Origin: the human T2T-CHM13v2.0 reference genome, Homo sapiens
Assembly: GCF_009914755.1 (NCBI RefSeq)
Contig: NC_060931.1
DNA: 64,000 bases
Reading direction: 5' to 3' (one strand)
The notes below the pieces were generated by a model, which saw only the letters and a list, made by a program, of their open reading frames with translations, was not told the DNA's origin and did not search any database. This document shows positions 45,528 through 60,593 of this stretch, one piece after another. Within the stretch, counting starts at the first letter, position 1. Every line of letters starts with the position of its first letter. A program made the position numbers and the translations under genes.

Positions 45528-48403
45528 CTTGTTTCTTGTCTAAGCTAGTATTTCAGTTTATAACAGTTATAAACTAGGGAGTTCCAAATGATGAACAGGA
45601 CACCCCCTCAGAAACTGCACCAAGAGGGAAGCCTTTCTTTGTTCCCACCTGTCCCGCCCTCTCCCTAGAGAACACCGGTTTGATGGGATGCAAAGGGTGC
45701 GTGTCCAGACCAGGGGCTCAGTGAGAACCCAGCAGTGCAAGCTCATCCTGCGTCAGTGGAGGGGATCGGGGGCTGGGAGCCTGGTTTGCCTCTGGGGAAT
45801 GGATCACTCCAAGGTCACCTCAGAGGTCTGATTTGGGTTGGAGTCTCTGAGTATCAGATCTCCCCCAAAGTGAGCTGAGACTAGCTTCTTCAAGGCTGTT
45901 CCAGTCTGGTGTGCCACCTCTGACTGCTCCACATTTCAGAGCTATGCCCTTAGGACTGGGGTAAGATGGTATTTGGGCCCCCAGAATCCGTCTAGTGAAC
46001 AAGCGCTCACTGAACAAGTGCCTGCTGGATGATGGCGTCTGTGAGACTGTCCCAGAGATCAGTCACTCTGAGAACTTGCCATCAACACCAAGTTGACACC
46101 TCTGTGTAACACCAGCATTGCTAGTGGCCTCTGAGAGCCATTTTTGAAGGCAAGGTAGATGTGGAAGCCCAAGAGGAGGCCTGGGGATGTGAGTGCGGGA
46201 ATAGCAGCCTGGATGGGGGTCCTCAGGAGCAGCTGTTCTGAGCCATGGTGCCTTGTGATTCTGTCCGGCCGATTCTTTCCTTCCTTCTTACATTCATCAC
46301 CCATTTCCTCAGTTCCTGCCCCTTTGCCAGGTATTGGTGAACAGACATAACTCTTCACAGAGCTCACGGCTTATATAAGAGGGCTGCCGTTAAATAAGGA
46401 AACAAACAAATGGGATTTCATCTGGCTTGGATGTCCATCCTCTAGTTTCTACCATCAAAAACAGCATTGATCTCTAAGTTGGTAAAAATTTAAAGTCTCA
46501 TTCACTTGGAAAATGTCTCACCACCCACAAATCTGGATGTAAATTTTGGTTCTATGAATAAGAACCAGACATAAACCTCTTATGTTTATTCATTGAAGTT
46601 TATGTTTTCAGTTGACTAAAATTGTTCTAAGTTCCACTAAATGAGAGAATTATAGACACTTAGTATCTCCAAGGAGAAGGGAAGGTTAAGTTCTCCTATA
46701 TGTGTAATTTTATTCCTTTCAAGGGCCTATGTGCATCTAACAGGGGAAAGATGTTTTTCTTATTAATTTCTAAGCAGTTAGTTAACTTCTGTTTATAGTT
46801 AATTTCTTTTTATATTAAAGCAGGAGCTCCCGCTAGCAAGAAGACTGTCTCTGGGGTGCCAGCACACCTGGTTCCATCTCCCAGGTGCTTGGCGAAACTG
46901 CAAGCAGATGGCCAGATGACAGAGCATCTCTCTGGAATGCAAATTCATGCCAAGCACCTAGAAAATCAGAGCGTAACTCCTGCCCAGAACCAAGAGCTGG
47001 CTCAGGATGGAGAAACCCATCAAAAAGAGCTTTCTCCTGACAGCCATCTCAATCCTGAGCTCCCTCAACACCTCAGTTCATCAGCACTGGGTCTTCCTCA
47101 GCAGGCCCAGGACCTATCCCTAAACCCAACGGAAGAGGATGTCCAACAATCAGATCTTCCCCTAAAACAAATAGCCACTGAGACAGATGTCCCTGAGATG
47201 GAAGCCAGTGAGGTTGGGCAGTCTCCCATCACCCCGACCCTGGTGCCTCCTGTGCACCCTTCCCCTCCCTCGTCCCGCAGCCCTCAGCCAGGCCAGGACA
47301 AGGAGTCAGGGGAGGCCCAGGTAACCCCTACTGGCCCTCCTCTGTCTGAACCTCTACAGGGACCTGGCCCCACTCCCCTCAGCCCTCAGAGAATTCAGGA
47401 TGAGGAAATTGAGTCAGACAAACTTCCACCCAGCAGTTCCCACCATGATCCTCCAAAAGATTCTTCCCACACTGACTTGGTGCAGAAACTTGCTGGCGAT
47501 TCTCAGCAAGCTCTGAAGGAGGAAACCTCCAAACCGGAAGCCATCCGAGTCAGTATCCCTCACCCAGAACTGCCACATCCCCAAGACTTAGCAACAGATA
47601 CCAAGCAGCCCCAGGCCAGGGGAGCCCCGGGGACCTTGCTTCCTAGAAGCCGGCTGGCTCCCACTCGGCTGCCCCAGCCTCAGGTGCTGGCTCCCCTCCA
47701 GAGCAGGAGGCCCACACCCAAACTCCTATCGCCCAGCAGGGAAGAGGCTTTAGGAACAACCTCCCATCAAACCATGACGGTCTCTCCCAGGCTTCCACCA
47801 ACCCGGGAAGCAGACACCAGTAAACTTCCTCCCATCAGCCCTCCGCACTCAAAACCACCACCAAATCTGAGCCCCCAGGCAGCCCACAGTCTTCAGCAAG
47901 TCCAGGAAGAGAAGGTCAGTGAGGTGAAACTCCCTCTTATCAGTCCCCCCAGCCAGGAGCAAGCAGAACCTCGCATCCTCAGTCCCGCCCAGGAGGAGGC
48001 GGCTCAGAAAGTGAGGCTCCCTCGCATTCCTGCTCCTCTTCCGGAGCCAGGGCTGCCCCAGAACTCGGGGACTCAGCCTGATCCAAGGCCTGCAAAGGAA
48101 AGGAAAGCTCCCCAAGCAGGCAGCTCCTCCAGGAGGAAGATTCCAGACATGCGGGCCTCACCCCACAACCAGGGGCCACTTCAGCAGACAGGGGCTAGGG
48201 AAAAAAAGCTCCCCAACCAGAAAGGGACGGCTAGAGGACTGGCACCTCTGGAAGAGGCACCACCTGGGAACCACCAGCCAGCCTTGCAGCTAGAACCCCA
48301 CGATCAGCCAGCTCCCACCATGGTGCCCGACGATCCCAACCCCAGCCCTCCTCTTGTTTCTTGTCTAAGCTAGTATTTCAGTGTGTAACTGTTACAAATT
48401 AGG
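45528..48403 (+). repeat. 51-bp dispersed duplication (45528-45578 intronic; 48353-48403 exonic), 46/51 identical
   Basis: First 30 nt identical: cttgtttcttgtctaagctagtatttcagt. Confidence 0.95.
46824..48373 (+). CDS. LRGUK: Alternative terminal coding exon of LRGUK, ~516-aa Pro/Gln/Ser/Glu-rich disordered C-terminus (GAPASKKTVSGVPAHLVPSPR...PSPPLVSCLS*)
   Basis: tttctttttatattaaAGcAG acceptor. Phase 1 joins the donor at 39692 in frame with the 505-codon ORF 46856-48373. Sharp GC rise at the acceptor; no repeat signature. Confidence 0.8.
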
Positions 48404-49084
48404 CCATCTGAGCAACCAGAGAAGCAAAGTCCATACACCAGAAATTCCTGAGCCGCCCCACGCCGAGCCATCACCTAAGACCCCCAATTACAAGAAGATT
48501 AAAAAAAACATAATTCCAGGAAAAGGACCCATACCAACCTCCCCACAAATGACCTGGCTTGGAATGTAGATGTGTCCAAACAAGGGCCATCTTGTAAGAG
48601 AGAGATTTTTGGAGGGTTATCTCAAGAAAATAAAACTCCCGTCAATGGTGATCAGCCAGCTCAGGAGGGCCAGCCCTCACCCGGGAGACCTCTCCAGAGG
48701 GAAAAGGCCCCTGCGGAGTCGCTACAGGATAGCTCGGCTCCTGTGGAGCATCCAGGGAGAAAGGGACAGGTTCATCGAAAGGGCAGGTCTCAGAGGAGAG
48801 AGATTGCTTCGCAATCCCCAGAGCAGGACAGTGAGCCCCCAACCCAGCAGCCTGTCAAAGACACACCAGCCCATCAGGGGAGAGGTCAGGCCAGAGAGAG
48901 CTCTGTCCAAAGGCACAATGCACTTGCTTCCAAGCAGCAAACCAAAGAGAAGCGAACCTGAAAACATGGGGCAGTGCCACAGGACAAAAGCCCCGCCACT
49001 CCCCAGAACCAGGTGTCTACTGTGGAGCAGGGCAGCTGGAAGGGAAGACTGCGCCCCAGGAGCAGTCAGAGCACCAAGGTTTAA
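48404..49084 (+). pseudogene. Decayed in-frame continuation of the alternative terminal exon (now 3' UTR), ~227 codons
   Basis: Same frame as 46856-48373 and similar composition (PSEQPEKQSP...QEGQPSPGRPLQREKAP...RSSQSTKV*). Internal stops only at 48449 TGA, 48476 TAA, 48500 TAA, 48959 TGA; no frameshift needed. Confidence 0.7.
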
Positions 49085-49819
49085 GCCATCCCTGGAGCCA
49101 CCAGCTCATTAAGGTCTGGGAACCCCGAGGCAGCACTGTCACAGAACGACCAGCTATGGCTGGGTCCTGTGAGTCTCCACACTGGCTTCCTCCTGAACCC
49201 ATGGTCAGCGTAGGTGGAGGGGCTGTTCAGCACTGTCCAAACCTTGGATTCCTAGAAGGCAGCCAATCTGCACTCCTGTGCCTCTTCTGCTGTTGCCGTC
49301 ACAGCCTGGAAGAGCAGTTGTTGCAGAGGGATGCAGCTCTATCAGCTGCTGCCACCAAATTGAGCCATTCTGGAAGGCTGGTGTCAGCAAGTAGCCTTTG
49401 TGTCCAGACACGAATCCAACCTGAGTTCCAACTCTGGCTGAAGCAGGGCCATATTGCCATTAAGTTTTCTTCTCTTCATAAGGAAAATTCGCTTCTAGAC
49501 TTCTAGAAAATTCTCTCACCCCTCTTGCATTATCGAGGAGTTCCAAAGCAAAAAGAACTTTTGAGACAGGAAGACTTTGCTGTTCCTGGAGGTTCCAAAC
49601 CTACAGTTAACTTGTGGGAATCTTCTGTAGGGAAGAAGACATATTTTGCATGCATGACTCTGTGATCAAATGCTTCAGATTTGTCTTGGCAATATGTTGC
49701 CTGAAACTTACTTTTGCTTGAAATGTATTTCAAAATGAATACCTTCCTTCTTTCTCTGAATAGAAATCTCATGTAAATTAGCTCATGCCTTTATTATGCC
49801 AAACCATCTGGTTGAATCA

Positions 49820-49825
49820 ATTAAA
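49820..49825 (+). terminator. Candidate polyadenylation signal (ATTAAA) for the alternative terminal exon
   Basis: PAS-like hexamer downstream of the GC-rich exon-like block, followed by GT/T-rich sequence near 49850-49875. AATAAA at 48629-48634 is an alternative. Confidence 0.35.
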
Positions 49826-50807
49826 AGAATTAATGGGGAGAACATTTAAGTGAATCAGTTGTTCGTTTATCTATTCATACCATCAGGATTCTTTCGCTGG
49901 CAAATGATAGGAGTCCACTCTAAGCCAGCTTCTGTGACTCTATTAGAAGGGAGTAGAAGATTTCATATGAACAAACTATGGGAAGGGCAGGGCTACAGCA
50001 AGTCTCAGAGAGACTGGGGGCCAGTTGTGGAACATAACCAGGACTCTAGTCATCTCCTGGACTCTGGTCTAGGACTCTCACCACTTCTCTTCTCTGTTTC
50101 TTTCTCCATGTTGGCTTCATTCTTTGGACTACAGATGACTCTATCAGTTTCTGCACATGGTGGGAAACATGGTTACCAGCAGCTCTCAAGCCCATATCTG
50201 ATTTTACCTCTGGAAGCTCCCAGTACTGTAAAGGGATTAATTTGAATGAATGTTCATTAATCCTAATCCAAAGAAAGTCTTGTTGGCCTAGCTTGGTTTA
50301 GGCACTTGTTCTTAAACCAATCTACTCTGGCAAGGACCAGGGTTACCTTCAGACATACCTATTGAACCTACTCCTATGTATGGACACTATACTCCACCCA
50401 AAAAGAGGATAATTGTGACTGAAACGGACAACTCAAGATGTGACTCTTAAAAAGCTGCAAGATATCTATTGAGCACTTACTGTGTACACAGCAGCATGCT
50501 AAACTGTATTTGGTATCTCATATTTAAAAATGTAACTGATGACTAAATGCCTGTGTAAATGTCTCTTACACAAAAGAGAGGTGTCTATGAAACTATGAAT
50601 TTCAAATGTTATTTCAAGGGCAGTAGAGGAAACTGATATTTTAGAAATCCAGGATATAGAAATCCTCTTGCAAAATGAAGAGCTTATATAATGCCAGTAA
50701 TTGCCCTCTGATTTATCTGATTTGTCCATGATGAAAATAATACAGTAATTGTAGAAAATATATCATTTGTTTATTTTTACTAAAAGTGTATTTATTTTTA
50801 CTAAAAG

Positions 50808-51580
50808 TTCATTCATCCAACAAGCATTTATTGAGCACACGCTATGTGCCAGACAGTGATGGTTGCTAGATAAGGGGAAGTGATGAGGATACTTCAAGAA
50901 GCTTTGTCTTTTATCAAGGAAGACAGAGAGTTCATTATATTAATAACACCATGTGATTAGGGCAGCTGAAGGCCCCACAGCGTGTTAGGCTACATTTTAC
51001 ATCCTACAGACAGGAAAATCCATTTGTTAACTTTTCCAGATGTCATAAGAATACCAAGGAAGGACACTGAATTCGGCCTGGGATACAAACATTGGATCAG
51101 GAAACACTCCTAAGAGAAGGTCAGCCTTCAGCTTAGTCATCGCGGTTGCAGAATAGTCAGCAGACTGATGGAGAGGGGAAGTTTTCTTAGAAGAAGGAAC
51201 CACGTACGCCTAAGCAGAGGCACGCGCAGGCATAGCATCTTCTAAGGACCCGAATGCCAGGAGAGATGCAGGTCTATATAGATCCAAAGTGCTTTTTGTG
51301 CTACACCGAAGAGCTTGGAAACTTGATCTTTAACAATGGGGAGCTGCTGAATTTGTATCTAAGAGGCATCTGTCTGGAGGGGATATAGAGGATGAATTTG
51401 AGGAGAGCAATACAGGAAGCAGGAGGAGTGGCAGGGAAGTTATTGCTGTAGTCCAGGAAAGAAGGTTAGGCCTGAAATAAGGCTGTGGGGGCAGGAATTG
51501 TCAAATTAGGTAAATATTTAGATTGCATGTGGGAGAGGGTAGATTGTGCAAGACAGGAAGAAAATTAAGATCATTACCCA
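50808..51580 (-). mobile_element. L2 fragment
   Basis: ttcattcatccaacaagcatttattgagcacacgctatgtgccagacagtg. Confidence 0.75.
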
Positions 51581-58982: not shown

Positions 58983-59891
58983 AAGTCGGGTCTTGTGTGC
59001 CAAGCATGCAGGGGCTGTGGCTTCCCCCTCTCATACCATGTATTCAAACCTCAGCCCCTGATGCCCTGTGACCTCTTAGCATCAATTCCCACTCCTCTGA
59101 CTTCGAGTCTTCACTACACTTGTAGTGCCTAGAAAATTTTCTTTCTTAGTTTCCGCCTTACTATCTATTAAAAACAAAACAAATTTATGTTATATATTAG
59201 TATTTTTTTCATCTTTGGGTGGGGGTAGCTTTCCACTTCTGCTCAGTCCATCATATTGACTGAAGGTACATGTGGATATCATTTATTTTAGCATTTTAAA
59301 AGCAATACTCCTGAAATTGTTGATGCTCCCATATAGCCAAAGCTATTTACTCCTAGCCCTCTGTGAATGAGCAGTAATAAAAATTTATACAGTATTCTTA
59401 TATTCTAGGTCTCTGAACATTCTAACATCTTAAAGGAAATATTAGATATTATTTATGAATAAATTCTGTGAAACAGTGGGCTCATCATTCCATTCTATTT
59501 CAAAGCCTCTTAGCATTGCATAGTTTATTTTCCTTTTAGCCTTTTGGACTTTCATCAAATGAAAAGTCATTATAAGGGTAATTTTTCAATTAAATATCTA
59601 GAAGCCACTGTTTTTGACATGTCTTACTTCTTTTGATTTTATTTATAAGCCTGAATTGATTAAGTATTGGGTATATTCGGAGGATATATCTATTAGGTAT
59701 TATAGGCTGATTTTATTATTATGAGTTATTTTATTCTAAGATATATTTTTATTTTATTTTAAAGTTGAAATGCGCACATTTTAAGTATCCAGCTTGTTAT
59801 GTTTGGGCAAATAAAAATATAAAACATTTCTATCACTTCAGAAATTTCCTTTATGACTTTTATTTTAAACTTTATTTTTTTTTCCTACCAG

Positions 59892-60031
59892 ATGTTAAGA
59901 CATCCCACCTGAAACCTGAAGCGCATCCTACAAAGTATATTTCTTCGAATATGGGTGATTTCCTGCATTCTACAGACAGAAACTACCTCATTAAATTTTG
60001 GGCCAAACTTTCAGCCAAAAAAACACCAGCG
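59892..60031 (+). CDS. LRGUK: LRGUK coding exon of the canonical isoform (DVKTSHLKPEAHPTKYISSNMGDFLHSTDRNYLIKFWAKLSAKKTPA)
   Basis: Long polypyrimidine tract and cctaccAG acceptor, gcg|GTaaga donor. 140 nt, phase 1/0, in frame with the exon ending at 39692. Confidence 0.93.
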
Positions 60032-60593
60032 GTAAGAGAGGAATAGAAGGGGTGAAGCCACAACTGAGCTCTATACAATGTCAGACAAAGAGGGGATTTA
60101 ATATTTTGAGACTAATAAGTTTCCCCAAAATTATTCTCTCACTAGTGTCAGCTGAAGACAGGATTTTGACTCTTTGTACATCCCTGAGAATAGACACTGG
60201 TTCTAAAAGTAGAATATTCAATATCAGATTCTGTGAGTACCTTTCTCCTGGGCTCCCAGTGAAAATTCTGACATTCAAATCTTCTATTTTGTAAGAACAG
60301 AAAAGCACTACAAGAAAATTAATGCAGTGAAAGATGTATTTCAAGGGAAAACTTGCTTTGTTGCTAGGGTATAAATTTGAGTATTCTTGGGCTGAGCCTG
60401 AAAAGTGAGTCCACTCAAAGAGTCCGTGTTTTATAACTTAGCACTTCTTAAACCAGTCGCATCACTTAGTCCCAACTTATTTCTCTGAAAGTTTTGAGAA
60501 AGCAGCATGCACAGGAGTGTGGAATGCAAAATTGGCACTGCATTCAGATTAGGTTGTACTTGTTTTCCATCTGTAATCATTTTTATGTGATGA

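What the first reader, a model, noticed from the sequence alone, without database searches (positions are those of the whole stretch)
48404..49084. Fossil coding tail: ~227 more in-frame codons broken only by C>T-type stops
Seen: the same frame reads PSEQPEKQSPYTRNS*AAPRRAIT*DPQLQED*KKHNSRKRTHTNLPTNDLAWNVDVSKQGPSCKRE...QEGQPSPGRPLQREKAPAESLQDSSAPVEHPGRKG...KQQTKEKRT*KHGAVPQDKSPATPQNQVSTVEQGSWKGRLRPRSSQSTKV*. The four internal stops (TGA 48449, TAA 48476, TAA 48500, TGA 48959) are each one transition from CGA or CAA, and no frameshift is needed. The supplied ORF 48572-48961 is a piece of this frame. Inference: this is an ancestral, more basic (R/K/Q-rich) C-terminal extension now decaying as 3' UTR, a lineage-specific loss of about 225 aa.
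Basis: partly seen in the sequence, partly recalled or inferred. Interest (0 to 1): 0.75.

Follow-up and report, generated by a model that had tools for sequence, protein, structure and literature searches.

The report
Fossil coding tail of LRGUK long isoform
The stretch is a real fossil: most mammals still translate these ~225 codons as the end of a long LRGUK isoform, but in humans, apes and macaques a 46-base copy of nearby intron DNA brought in a stop codon, and the rest now decays as untranslated RNA.

Summary
Openness alone is not significant: the tail is 14% T, another frame has only 1 stop, and shuffles give P(≤4 stops)=0.22. Homology settles it.

- **Orthologues.** 47 of 85 LRGUK-exon relatives align in one piece from 46820 to 49081 and end on their last residue there. 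They include mouse lemur, rodents, carnivores, bats, eulipotyphlans and afrotherians. The ancestral stop is therefore TAA 49082.
- **Truncated primates.** Pan, Pongo and Macaca proteins all end ...LVSCLS at TAG 48371.

- Frameshifts are present. 48402-48478 is homologous in another frame, bounded by 46 extra bases (48356-48401) and a 1-base loss near 48478. The net +45 mimics continuity.
- TGA 48449 and TAA 48476 are therefore out-of-frame artefacts.
- Only TGA 48959 fits CGA>TGA (R in 30 of 49). TAA 48500 faces K in 34 of 49.
- The extra segment copies intron sequence 2.8 kb upstream (46 of 51 identical). Its core occurs only twice in the genome.

This is a new instance of a known kind of event, of moderate interest.

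The parts
46821..48373 (+). Retained coding part of the alternative last exon of LRGUK (annotated exon 46821/46824-50779). It is open in frame mod2 and ends at TAG 48371-48373.
   Evidence: 0 stops in this frame against 16 and 17 in the other two; shuffle mean 11, minimum 2 of 500. Pan protein P0002 residues 615-1131 align to 46820-48370 after the upstream LRGUK exons. Pfam finds no domain in it.
48356..48401 (+). 46 extra bases absent from all intact orthologue proteins. They carry TAG 48371 and TAA 48386 and shift the downstream frame by +1. The similarity to the template spans 48353-48403.
   Evidence: Frameshift-aware alignments show 15 extra codons plus 1 base between ...PSPPL and the SNQRSKV segment. 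46 of 51 bases are identical to 45528-45578, with no similarity beyond the edges.
45528..45578 (+). Presumed template of the insertion: intronic sequence 2825 bases upstream, on the same strand.
   Evidence: blastn-short E=1e-12 and alignment A2. The 29-base core has exactly 2 matches, at up to 3 mismatches, in the whole 3.1-Gb assembly, both here; the backwards control has 0.
48402..48478 (+). Fossil segment A. It is homologous to the orthologue segment SPQGNQRRKVHMPEIPEPPHAEPLPK only in frame mod0.
   Evidence: alignments. 37 of 49 tail queries give frame-mod0 HSPs, the significant ones at 48402-48518 (best E 2.5e-8).
48478..48479 (+). One-base loss (AAG GAC collapsed to AAGAC) that returns the homology to frame mod2.
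   Evidence: Called in 9 of 9 orthologue alignments, at 48478 in 8 and 48484 in 1. The close-relative ORF P0088 has one more base at this spot.
48479..49081 (+). Fossil segment B: 201 codons in frame mod2 homologous to the orthologues' C-terminal ~200 residues. It ends GRLRPRSSQSTKV against the conserved GRLRARGSQSTKV.
   Evidence: 49 of 49 tail queries hit this frame, best HSP 48479-49081 at E 8e-60. See also alignment A1.
48500..48502 (+). In-frame TAA in the ancestral frame, next to a run of A and a 2-3 codon shortening.
   Evidence: The orthologue column has K in 34 of 49, E in 8 and Q in 3.
48959..48961 (+). In-frame TGA in the ancestral frame, consistent with CGA>TGA.
   Evidence: The orthologue column has R in 30 of 49, Q in 7 and W in 4.
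49082..49084 (+). TAA at the position of the ancestral stop codon of the long isoform.
   Evidence: For 47 of 85 relatives the best HSP ends at 49081 on the protein's last residue.

Best explanation
Window 48402-49081 is the dead C-terminal quarter (about 225 codons) of the large alternative last exon of LRGUK.

**The intact form.** In most placental mammals this exon is one uninterrupted ORF of about 700 codons. It is proline/serine/glutamine-rich with no Pfam domain. Its tail is more basic and ends in the conserved motif GRLRARGSQSTKV.

**The truncation.** On the lineage leading to Old World monkeys and apes, a 46-base copy of intron sequence lying 2.8 kb upstream was inserted right after ...PNPSPPL (48355). 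The inserted bases read VSCLS-TAG, so translation now stops at 48371. Everything downstream became 3' UTR.

**Later decay.** The tail has since picked up a 1-base deletion (about 48478), a short deletion with a TAA in an A-run (48500), and a TGA (48959, probably CGA>TGA).

**Why it looked unshifted.** +46 and -1 sum to +45, so the far part of the tail happens to sit in the frame of the living ORF.

**Shown:** homology, the shared stop position, the frames, the local duplicate, and the shared stop in chimpanzee, orangutan and macaque.

**Inferred:** that the insertion was the first disabling event; that it arose by template switching or microhomology-mediated repair; and its age.
For: (1) Relatives: 85 with E<=0.001. 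Non-anthropoid LRGUK isoforms cover 95-100% of the read-through query; ape and monkey ones cover <=68%.

(2) For 47 of 85, one HSP in frame mod2 runs from about 46820 to 49081 and ends on the protein's last residue. All 47 carry RARGSQS.

(3) Tail-only tblastn: 49 of 49 queries hit frame mod2 (median E 2e-37). Reversed controls reach 0.03 at best.

(4) The intact ORFs include many predicted on short unspliced contigs (P0018, P0020, P0021 and others, about 650-730 aa). No intron therefore needs to be invoked at the junction.

(5) Pan, Pongo and Macaca proteins all end ...P(P/S)LVSCLS.

(6) Frameshift-aware alignments place the +46 and -1 events.

(7) The extra segment is 46 of 51 identical to 45528-45578, with sharp edges. 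Its core is found only at these two places in the whole assembly.

(8) The orthologue column at TGA 48959 is R in 30 of 49.

(9) Human differs at 2 positions (A>P, G>S) of the motif that all 47 end-reaching orthologues share.

(10) P0088, an ORF from an unnamed contig, is 175 of 194 identical to human frames. It threads frames 1>0>2>0, so that relative's tail carries different indels (about 48479, 48508, 48879). This is independent decay.
Against: No outgroup DNA was available, so the polarity and exact edges of the insertion rest on protein alignments.

A relative-rate test found no excess change on the human branch in the tail. Human-only versus lemur-only changes against a >=60% consensus were 16 versus 13 (p=0.71). 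The still-coding part gave 45 versus 36. Relaxed constraint therefore shows only as disabling lesions, not as faster substitution.

The tail is weakly conserved even where intact: the majority-residue fraction is 0.2-0.7 over most 15-residue windows.

Several non-primate models also end early: Ursus, Sciurus, Crocuta, Camelus, Odocoileus, Manis, Hipposideros and the marsupials. These may be further losses or model artefacts.

Whether marmoset or tarsier carry the insertion is unknown. The marmoset and gibbon models leave the frame further upstream. Nothing here shows that the long isoform is translated in any species.
Confidence: 0.88

Rival explanations
1. Chance open frame: the tail is just T-poor 3' UTR that happens to have few stops and never coded.
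For: Stops per forward frame are 4, 1 and 8 in the tail, and shuffles give P(<=4)=0.22. Other frames are open for 180 and 223 aa.
Against: 49 of 49 orthologue tails match frame mod2 at a median E of 2e-37, against 0.03 at best for reversed controls. 47 proteins end exactly at 49081.
Confidence: 0.01
2. The tail is still coding in humans. The 46-47 bases 48356-48402 (GT...AG) would be removed as a tiny intron, or the stops read through, giving a full-length isoform.
For: 48356 starts with GT and 48401-48402 is AG. The far tail is in frame with the upstream ORF.
Against: Removing 47 bases gives GCC ATC TGA at once. Removing 46 bases restores segment A but has no AG acceptor. The 1-base loss at about 48478 then leads to a stop at 48567 in frame mod0, and TAA 48500 and TGA 48959 remain in the ancestral frame. 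From recall, 47 bases is far below the usual length of human introns. Unspliced orthologue ORFs lack the segment.
Confidence: 0.02
3. The 46-base insertion was not the first lesion. The tail was disabled first by another change (for example TGA 48959 or an indel), or the whole long-isoform exon lost its function in anthropoids, and the insertion came later.
For: Gibbon and marmoset models leave the frame well upstream, at about 48217 and about 47962. Human-chimpanzee identity over the retained 517 residues is only 96%, orangutan 93% and macaque 88%. From recalled genome-wide divergences, these values are close to neutral expectation.
Against: The retained 516 codons have 0 stops in human. The same ORF end is kept in Pan, Pongo and Macaca. 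The -1 at 48478 is not shared with the close relative P0088, so it is younger. The insertion is the most upstream lesion and is shared by all catarrhines sampled.
Confidence: 0.15
4. The human remnant ORF 48572-48961 (130 aa, or 152 aa stop to stop) is itself a translated downstream ORF with a new function.
For: It is the longest open piece of the fossil frame. The protein database holds it as a predicted ORF, P0087.
Against: That entry is only a mechanical ORF call. In the close relative P0088 the same DNA is frameshifted at about 48879, so the ORF is not preserved. Its length is unremarkable for 14%-T DNA.
Confidence: 0.02

Closest known systems
Long LRGUK isoforms predicted in other mammals (named by sources: rat 'isoform 1' 1270 aa, dog 1273 aa, Mus spicilegus 1310 aa, Microcebus LOC142872961 721 aa)
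   Same: Same gene, same alternative last exon and collinear sequence: 45-64% identity of the human fossil to 16 named orthologue tails (42% to Suncus). The stop position and the C-terminal motif are the same.
   Different: The human copy is interrupted by a 46-base insertion with a stop, a 1-base deletion and two in-frame stops. The human, ape and macaque proteins end about 211-226 residues early.
Lineage-specific C-terminal truncation leaving 'fossil' codons in a 3' UTR (partial, unitary pseudogenisation)
   Same: An intact ORF in outgroups, a shared disabling lesion in one clade, and further lineage-specific lesions downstream.
   Different: Only part of one alternative isoform is lost. The canonical 825-aa LRGUK (NM_144648.3) does not use this exon at all, according to the annotation supplied with the finding.
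Short templated insertions from nearby sequence (template switching or microhomology-mediated repair; mechanism recalled, not tested)
   Same: The inserted bases copy a unique sequence 2.8 kb away on the same strand. The similarity span (51) exceeds the net insertion (46) by 5 bases, as microhomology at the junctions would give.

Membership tests
Orthologous coding tail of the LRGUK long-isoform last exon | Significant collinear similarity to the tails of intact orthologues, in a defined frame | tested here: met
   49 of 49 tails hit frame mod2 (median E 2e-37); reversed controls reach >=0.03. Single HSPs run 46820-49081.
Orthologous coding tail of the LRGUK long-isoform last exon | Same termination point as the orthologues | tested here: met
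   47 of 85 proteins end on their last residue at 49081, just before TAA 49082.
Orthologous coding tail of the LRGUK long-isoform last exon | Uninterrupted reading frame (still a coding sequence) | tested here: not met
   There is a +46 insertion carrying TAG and TAA, a -1 at about 48478, TAA 48500 and TGA 48959. It is a fossil, not a living exon part.
Clade-shared truncation followed by neutral decay | The disabling lesion is shared by related species and absent from outgroups | tested here: met
   Pan, Pongo (2 species) and Macaca (2 species) end ...LVSCLS. Microcebus and 46 other relatives read on. Platyrrhines and tarsier were not resolved.
Clade-shared truncation followed by neutral decay | Faster substitution in the dead part on the affected branch | tested here: inconclusive
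   Human-only versus lemur-only changes are 16 versus 13 in the tail (p=0.71) and 45 versus 36 upstream. No DNA was available for dN/dS.
Clade-shared truncation followed by neutral decay | Independent extra lesions in different descendants | tested here: met
   P0088 (90% identical) differs from human by indels at about 48479, 48508 and 48879.
Templated (duplicative) short insertion | The inserted sequence matches a nearby template and is not a dispersed repeat | tested here: met
   46 of 51 identical to 45528-45578. There are only 2 genome-wide matches of the 29-base core at <=3 mismatches.
Templated (duplicative) short insertion | Microhomology at both junctions with the pre-insertion sequence | not testable with these tools
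   This needs outgroup genomic DNA. Only the 5-base excess of the similarity span over the net insertion hints at it.
Retained or unrecognised intron | GT...AG borders whose removal restores the orthologous frame, with an intron at that place in orthologues | tested here: not met
   GT 48356 to AG 48402 removes 47 bases and gives an immediate TGA. Unspliced orthologue ORFs run straight through the junction without the segment.

The most novel reading that the evidence does not exclude
The long LRGUK isoform, with its basic tail and its C-terminus GRLRARGSQSTKV, may be a functional and unstudied product of this sperm-assembly gene in most mammals. The motif is shared by all 47 end-reaching placental orthologues and ends like a PDZ-domain ligand (the PDZ reading is recalled, not tested). 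Old World monkeys and apes, humans included, lost that terminus through one 46-base templated insertion. Part of LRGUK's interaction network in spermatids would then differ between catarrhines and the mouse and rat models used to study it.
Probability: 0.2. Interest if true: 0.6.

Novelty: new member of a known kind. Interest (0 to 1): 0.45.

Why it matters
LRGUK is required for sperm head shaping and axoneme growth in mice (PMC4363142, abstract and passages). A truncating variant is linked to human male infertility (PMC13631085, abstract and passages). Both papers deal with the canonical 820-825 aa protein. In PMC4363142, passages matching 'isoform', 'LRGUK-2', 'LRGUK-3' or 'splice' describe only isoform 1 and two shorter variants. 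PMC13631085 has no occurrence of 'isoform'.

The sequence record shows a much longer isoform kept open in dozens of mammals. Humans, apes and macaques make at best a shortened version lacking the conserved terminus. This matters in three ways:
- It bears on carrying results from rodent models over to humans.
- It affects how variants in this exon and 3' UTR are interpreted.
- It is a clean, datable example of a short templated insertion truncating a protein.

It does not open a long-standing question.

Tried and rejected
- **Openness statistics.** They do not support the finding on their own (P=0.22). The argument was moved to homology.
- **More primates.** A second database search with the lemur tail (20 hits) found no further primate with an intact tail. 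A search among shorter proteins (2 hits) gave only the human remnant ORF and one close relative.
- **Relative-rate test.** It showed no acceleration for relaxed constraint.
- **Pfam.** No family was found on the exon product (0 families for P0011 and P0001).
- **Dispersed repeat.** Rejected as the source of the 46 bases.
- **Micro-intron reading.** Rejected on frame, length and the unspliced orthologue ORFs.
- **Ursus.** The bear model ends ...NLIKCLVQSERHNSRNRFFF, which loosely resembles human LVSCLS (3 of 6 residues). I treated this as chance or a separate event and could not check it without DNA.
- **Literature.** ('LRGUK', 166 papers, 25 listed; 'LRGUK' plus 'primates', 14 papers, listing only; uninformative: none of the 10 listed held LRGUK) showed nothing on a long isoform or its loss in primates. 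Supplements were not opened.

Full report
**1. The observation**

In that frame the stops are TAG 48371, TAA 48386, TGA 48449, TAA 48476, TAA 48500, TGA 48959 and TAA 49082. The frame is open from 46799 to 48373, 524 codons stop to stop.

Few stops alone mean little here:
- The tail is only 14% T.
- The three forward frames have 4, 1 and 8 stops.
- 2000 dinucleotide-preserving shuffles give a mean of 6.3 stops and P(≤4)=0.22.
- Frame mod0 is open for 180 aa (48570-49112) and frame mod1 for 223 aa (48835-49506).

The upstream ORF is different. It has 0 stops against 16 and 17 in the other frames, with a shuffle mean of 11 and a minimum of 2 in 500. The remark that each stop is one transition from CGA or CAA is true of every TGA and TAA, so it says nothing.

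**2. Homology**

I translated 46823-49084 with X at the stops (P0001) and searched the large protein collection. It returned 85 relatives at E≤0.001, nearly all mammalian LRGUK isoforms or unnamed ORFs.

Ape and monkey entries cover at most 68% of the query. These are Pan, Pongo abelii and P. pygmaeus, Macaca, Symphalangus and Callithrix. Most non-anthropoid entries cover 95-100%. These include Microcebus, many rodents, dog, lynx, bats, moles, shrews, hedgehog, elephant, tenrecs and sengi.

Evidence that the tail is the same coding sequence:
- tblastn of all 85 against window 46000-51000 gives, for 47 of them, one HSP in frame mod2. It ends at 49081 on the protein's last residue, and all 47 carry RARGSQS. 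TAA 49082 therefore sits at the ancestral stop.
- Using only the last 230 residues of the 49 orthologues that carry the terminal motif, against 48374-49600, 49 of 49 hit frame mod2. The best E is 8e-60 and the median 2e-37. Reversed sequences reach 0.03 at best.
- About 20 intact relatives are ORFs of 644-727 aa predicted on short contigs of 2.5-8 kb, such as P0018, P0020 and P0021. These are not spliced models, so the reading frame is uninterrupted in those genomes.
- Alignment A1 shows the human ending GRLRPRSSQSTKV under GRLRARGSQSTKV.

**3.

I wrote a protein-to-DNA alignment that allows frameshifts and ran it with 9 orthologues.
- All 9 place a 1-base loss in human at about 48478 (one at 48484).
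- 6 of 9 place 15 extra codons plus 1 base between ...PNPSPPL (ending at 48355) and the SNQRSKV segment. A seventh places a 2-base shift at 48353 and reads the same stretch in frame mod0. The other two alignments start further downstream.
- 48402-48478 is thus homologous in frame mod0: GHLSNQRSKVHTPEIPEPPHAEPSP against SPQGNQRRKVHMPEIPEPPHAEPLP.
- 37 of the 49 tail queries give HSPs in that frame, and the significant ones lie at 48402-48518 (best E 2.5e-8).

TGA 48449 and TAA 48476 are therefore not decayed codons. They are out-of-frame reads of CCT GAG and CCT AAG. The +46 and -1 events sum to +45, which is why the far tail falls back into the frame of the living ORF.

In the ancestral frame the real nonsense codons are two:
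- **TAA 48500.** It lies beside an A-run and a 2-3 codon shortening. The orthologue column is K in 34 of 49, E in 8 and Q in 3.
- **TGA 48959.** The column is R in 30 of 49, Q in 7 and W in 4.

**4. The truncating event**

The extra segment is not anonymous. 48353-48403 is 46 of 51 identical to 45528-45578, in the intron 2825 bases upstream on the same strand (blastn-short E=1e-12). Similarity stops sharply at both edges.

A 29-base core, searched over the whole 3.1-Gb assembly with up to 3 mismatches, occurs only at these two places. The backwards control gives 0. It is therefore a local duplicate and not a dispersed repeat.

All intact orthologue proteins lack it, from marsupials to lemur. 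The exon copy is therefore the derived one. It reads VSCLS-TAG, which is exactly the ending of the chimpanzee, orangutan and macaque proteins.

The similarity span exceeds the net insertion by 5 bases. Junction microhomology would give this, as in template switching or microhomology-mediated repair. That is inference, and the mechanism is recalled, not tested.

The two copies differ at 5 of 51 sites (95% CI 3-21%). With a recalled primate neutral rate of about 1e-9 per site per year on both copies, this is of the order of 50 million years, with very wide limits. That agrees with an origin before the human-macaque split.

**5. Decay after truncation**

The human tail carries the lesions listed above. 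It also carries two substitutions (A>P, G>S) in the terminal motif that all 47 end-reaching orthologues share.

P0088 is an ORF from an unnamed contig and is 175 of 194 identical to human frames. It threads human frames 1>0>2>0. That relative therefore has one more base at about 48479, one more at about 48508 and one fewer at about 48879. The -1 at 48478 is thus younger than the split from that relative, and the tail has decayed independently there.

Gibbon and marmoset models leave the frame upstream of the stop, at about 48217 and about 47962. These may be further lesions or assembly or model errors.

**6. Results that do not help the story**

- A relative-rate test (human, mouse lemur, 15 outgroups) shows no excess of human-branch changes in the tail. 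Against a ≥60% consensus, human-only versus lemur-only changes are 16 versus 13 (p=0.71). Upstream they are 45 versus 36. The lemur branch may simply be faster, or constraint on this low-complexity tail may be weak. I cannot tell which.
- Conservation across intact tails is modest except for the last ~40 residues.
- Several non-primate models are shorter: Ursus, Sciurus, Crocuta, Camelus, Odocoileus, Manis and Hipposideros. Marsupial models stop at about 48586-48670.
- Human identity to chimpanzee, orangutan and macaque over the retained 517 residues is 96%, 93% and 88%. From recalled genomic divergences this is close to neutral, so the retained part may also be under little constraint in catarrhines.
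- No tool here shows that the isoform is translated in any species.

**7. What the tail was**

Pfam finds nothing in the exon product. The LRR and guanylate-kinase domains lie upstream.

In five intact orthologues the last 215 residues have K+R of 17-19% and net charge +0.03 to +0.07 per residue. The preceding 500 residues have K+R of 10-11% and net charge near 0.

The terminus ends S-(T/I/S)-(K/T/A/N)-(V/M/I). This resembles a PDZ-ligand C-terminus. That reading is recalled and untested.

**8. Literature**

PMC4363142 (abstract and passages) describes mouse isoforms 1-3 and studies the 93-kDa isoform 1. PMC13631085 (abstract and passages) uses NM_144648.3 only. The searches listed nothing on a long isoform or on its truncation in primates. 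Supplements were not read.

**9. Verdict**

The route of decay is different from the one proposed, and more specific: a 46-base templated insertion with a stop, then two indels and two nonsense codons. It is a new, well-documented instance of a familiar kind of event. Interest is moderate.

Noticed in passing
window 46818-46823: The exon's acceptor is a tandem AAG|CAG (NAGNAG). This matches the two annotated exon starts, 46821 and 46824.
   Followed up: no
window 46820-47218: Canis aureus (P0083) and Dama dama (P0084) models use only the first ~130 codons of this exon. They then continue into the canonical exon at 59891-60040. An internal donor near 47206-47218 may therefore make it a cassette exon in some species.
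   Followed up: partly
window 47820-48040: The retained ORF contains a loosely repeated motif, KLPPISPP / KLPLISPP / RLPRIPAP, that is among the best-conserved stretches of the exon across mammals.
   Followed up: no
window 48217 and 47962 (gibbon P0010, marmoset P0017): The gibbon and marmoset predicted proteins leave the human reading frame well before TAG 48371 and end in unrelated residues. These may be further independent frameshifts of the retained part, or model or assembly errors.
   Followed up: partly
window 48570-49506: Three staggered long open frames overlap here, plus a 127-aa one on the minus strand: mod2 48503-48961, mod0 48570-49112 and mod1 48835-49506. The T-poor composition explains them. 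Only the mod2 frame has homologues.
   Followed up: yes
window ~48586-48670: Marsupial LRGUK models (P0080, P0082, P0085, P0086) end ...IPKERES or shortly after, about 140-165 codons before the placental stop. The last part of the tail, with the conserved motif, may therefore be a placental feature.
   Followed up: no
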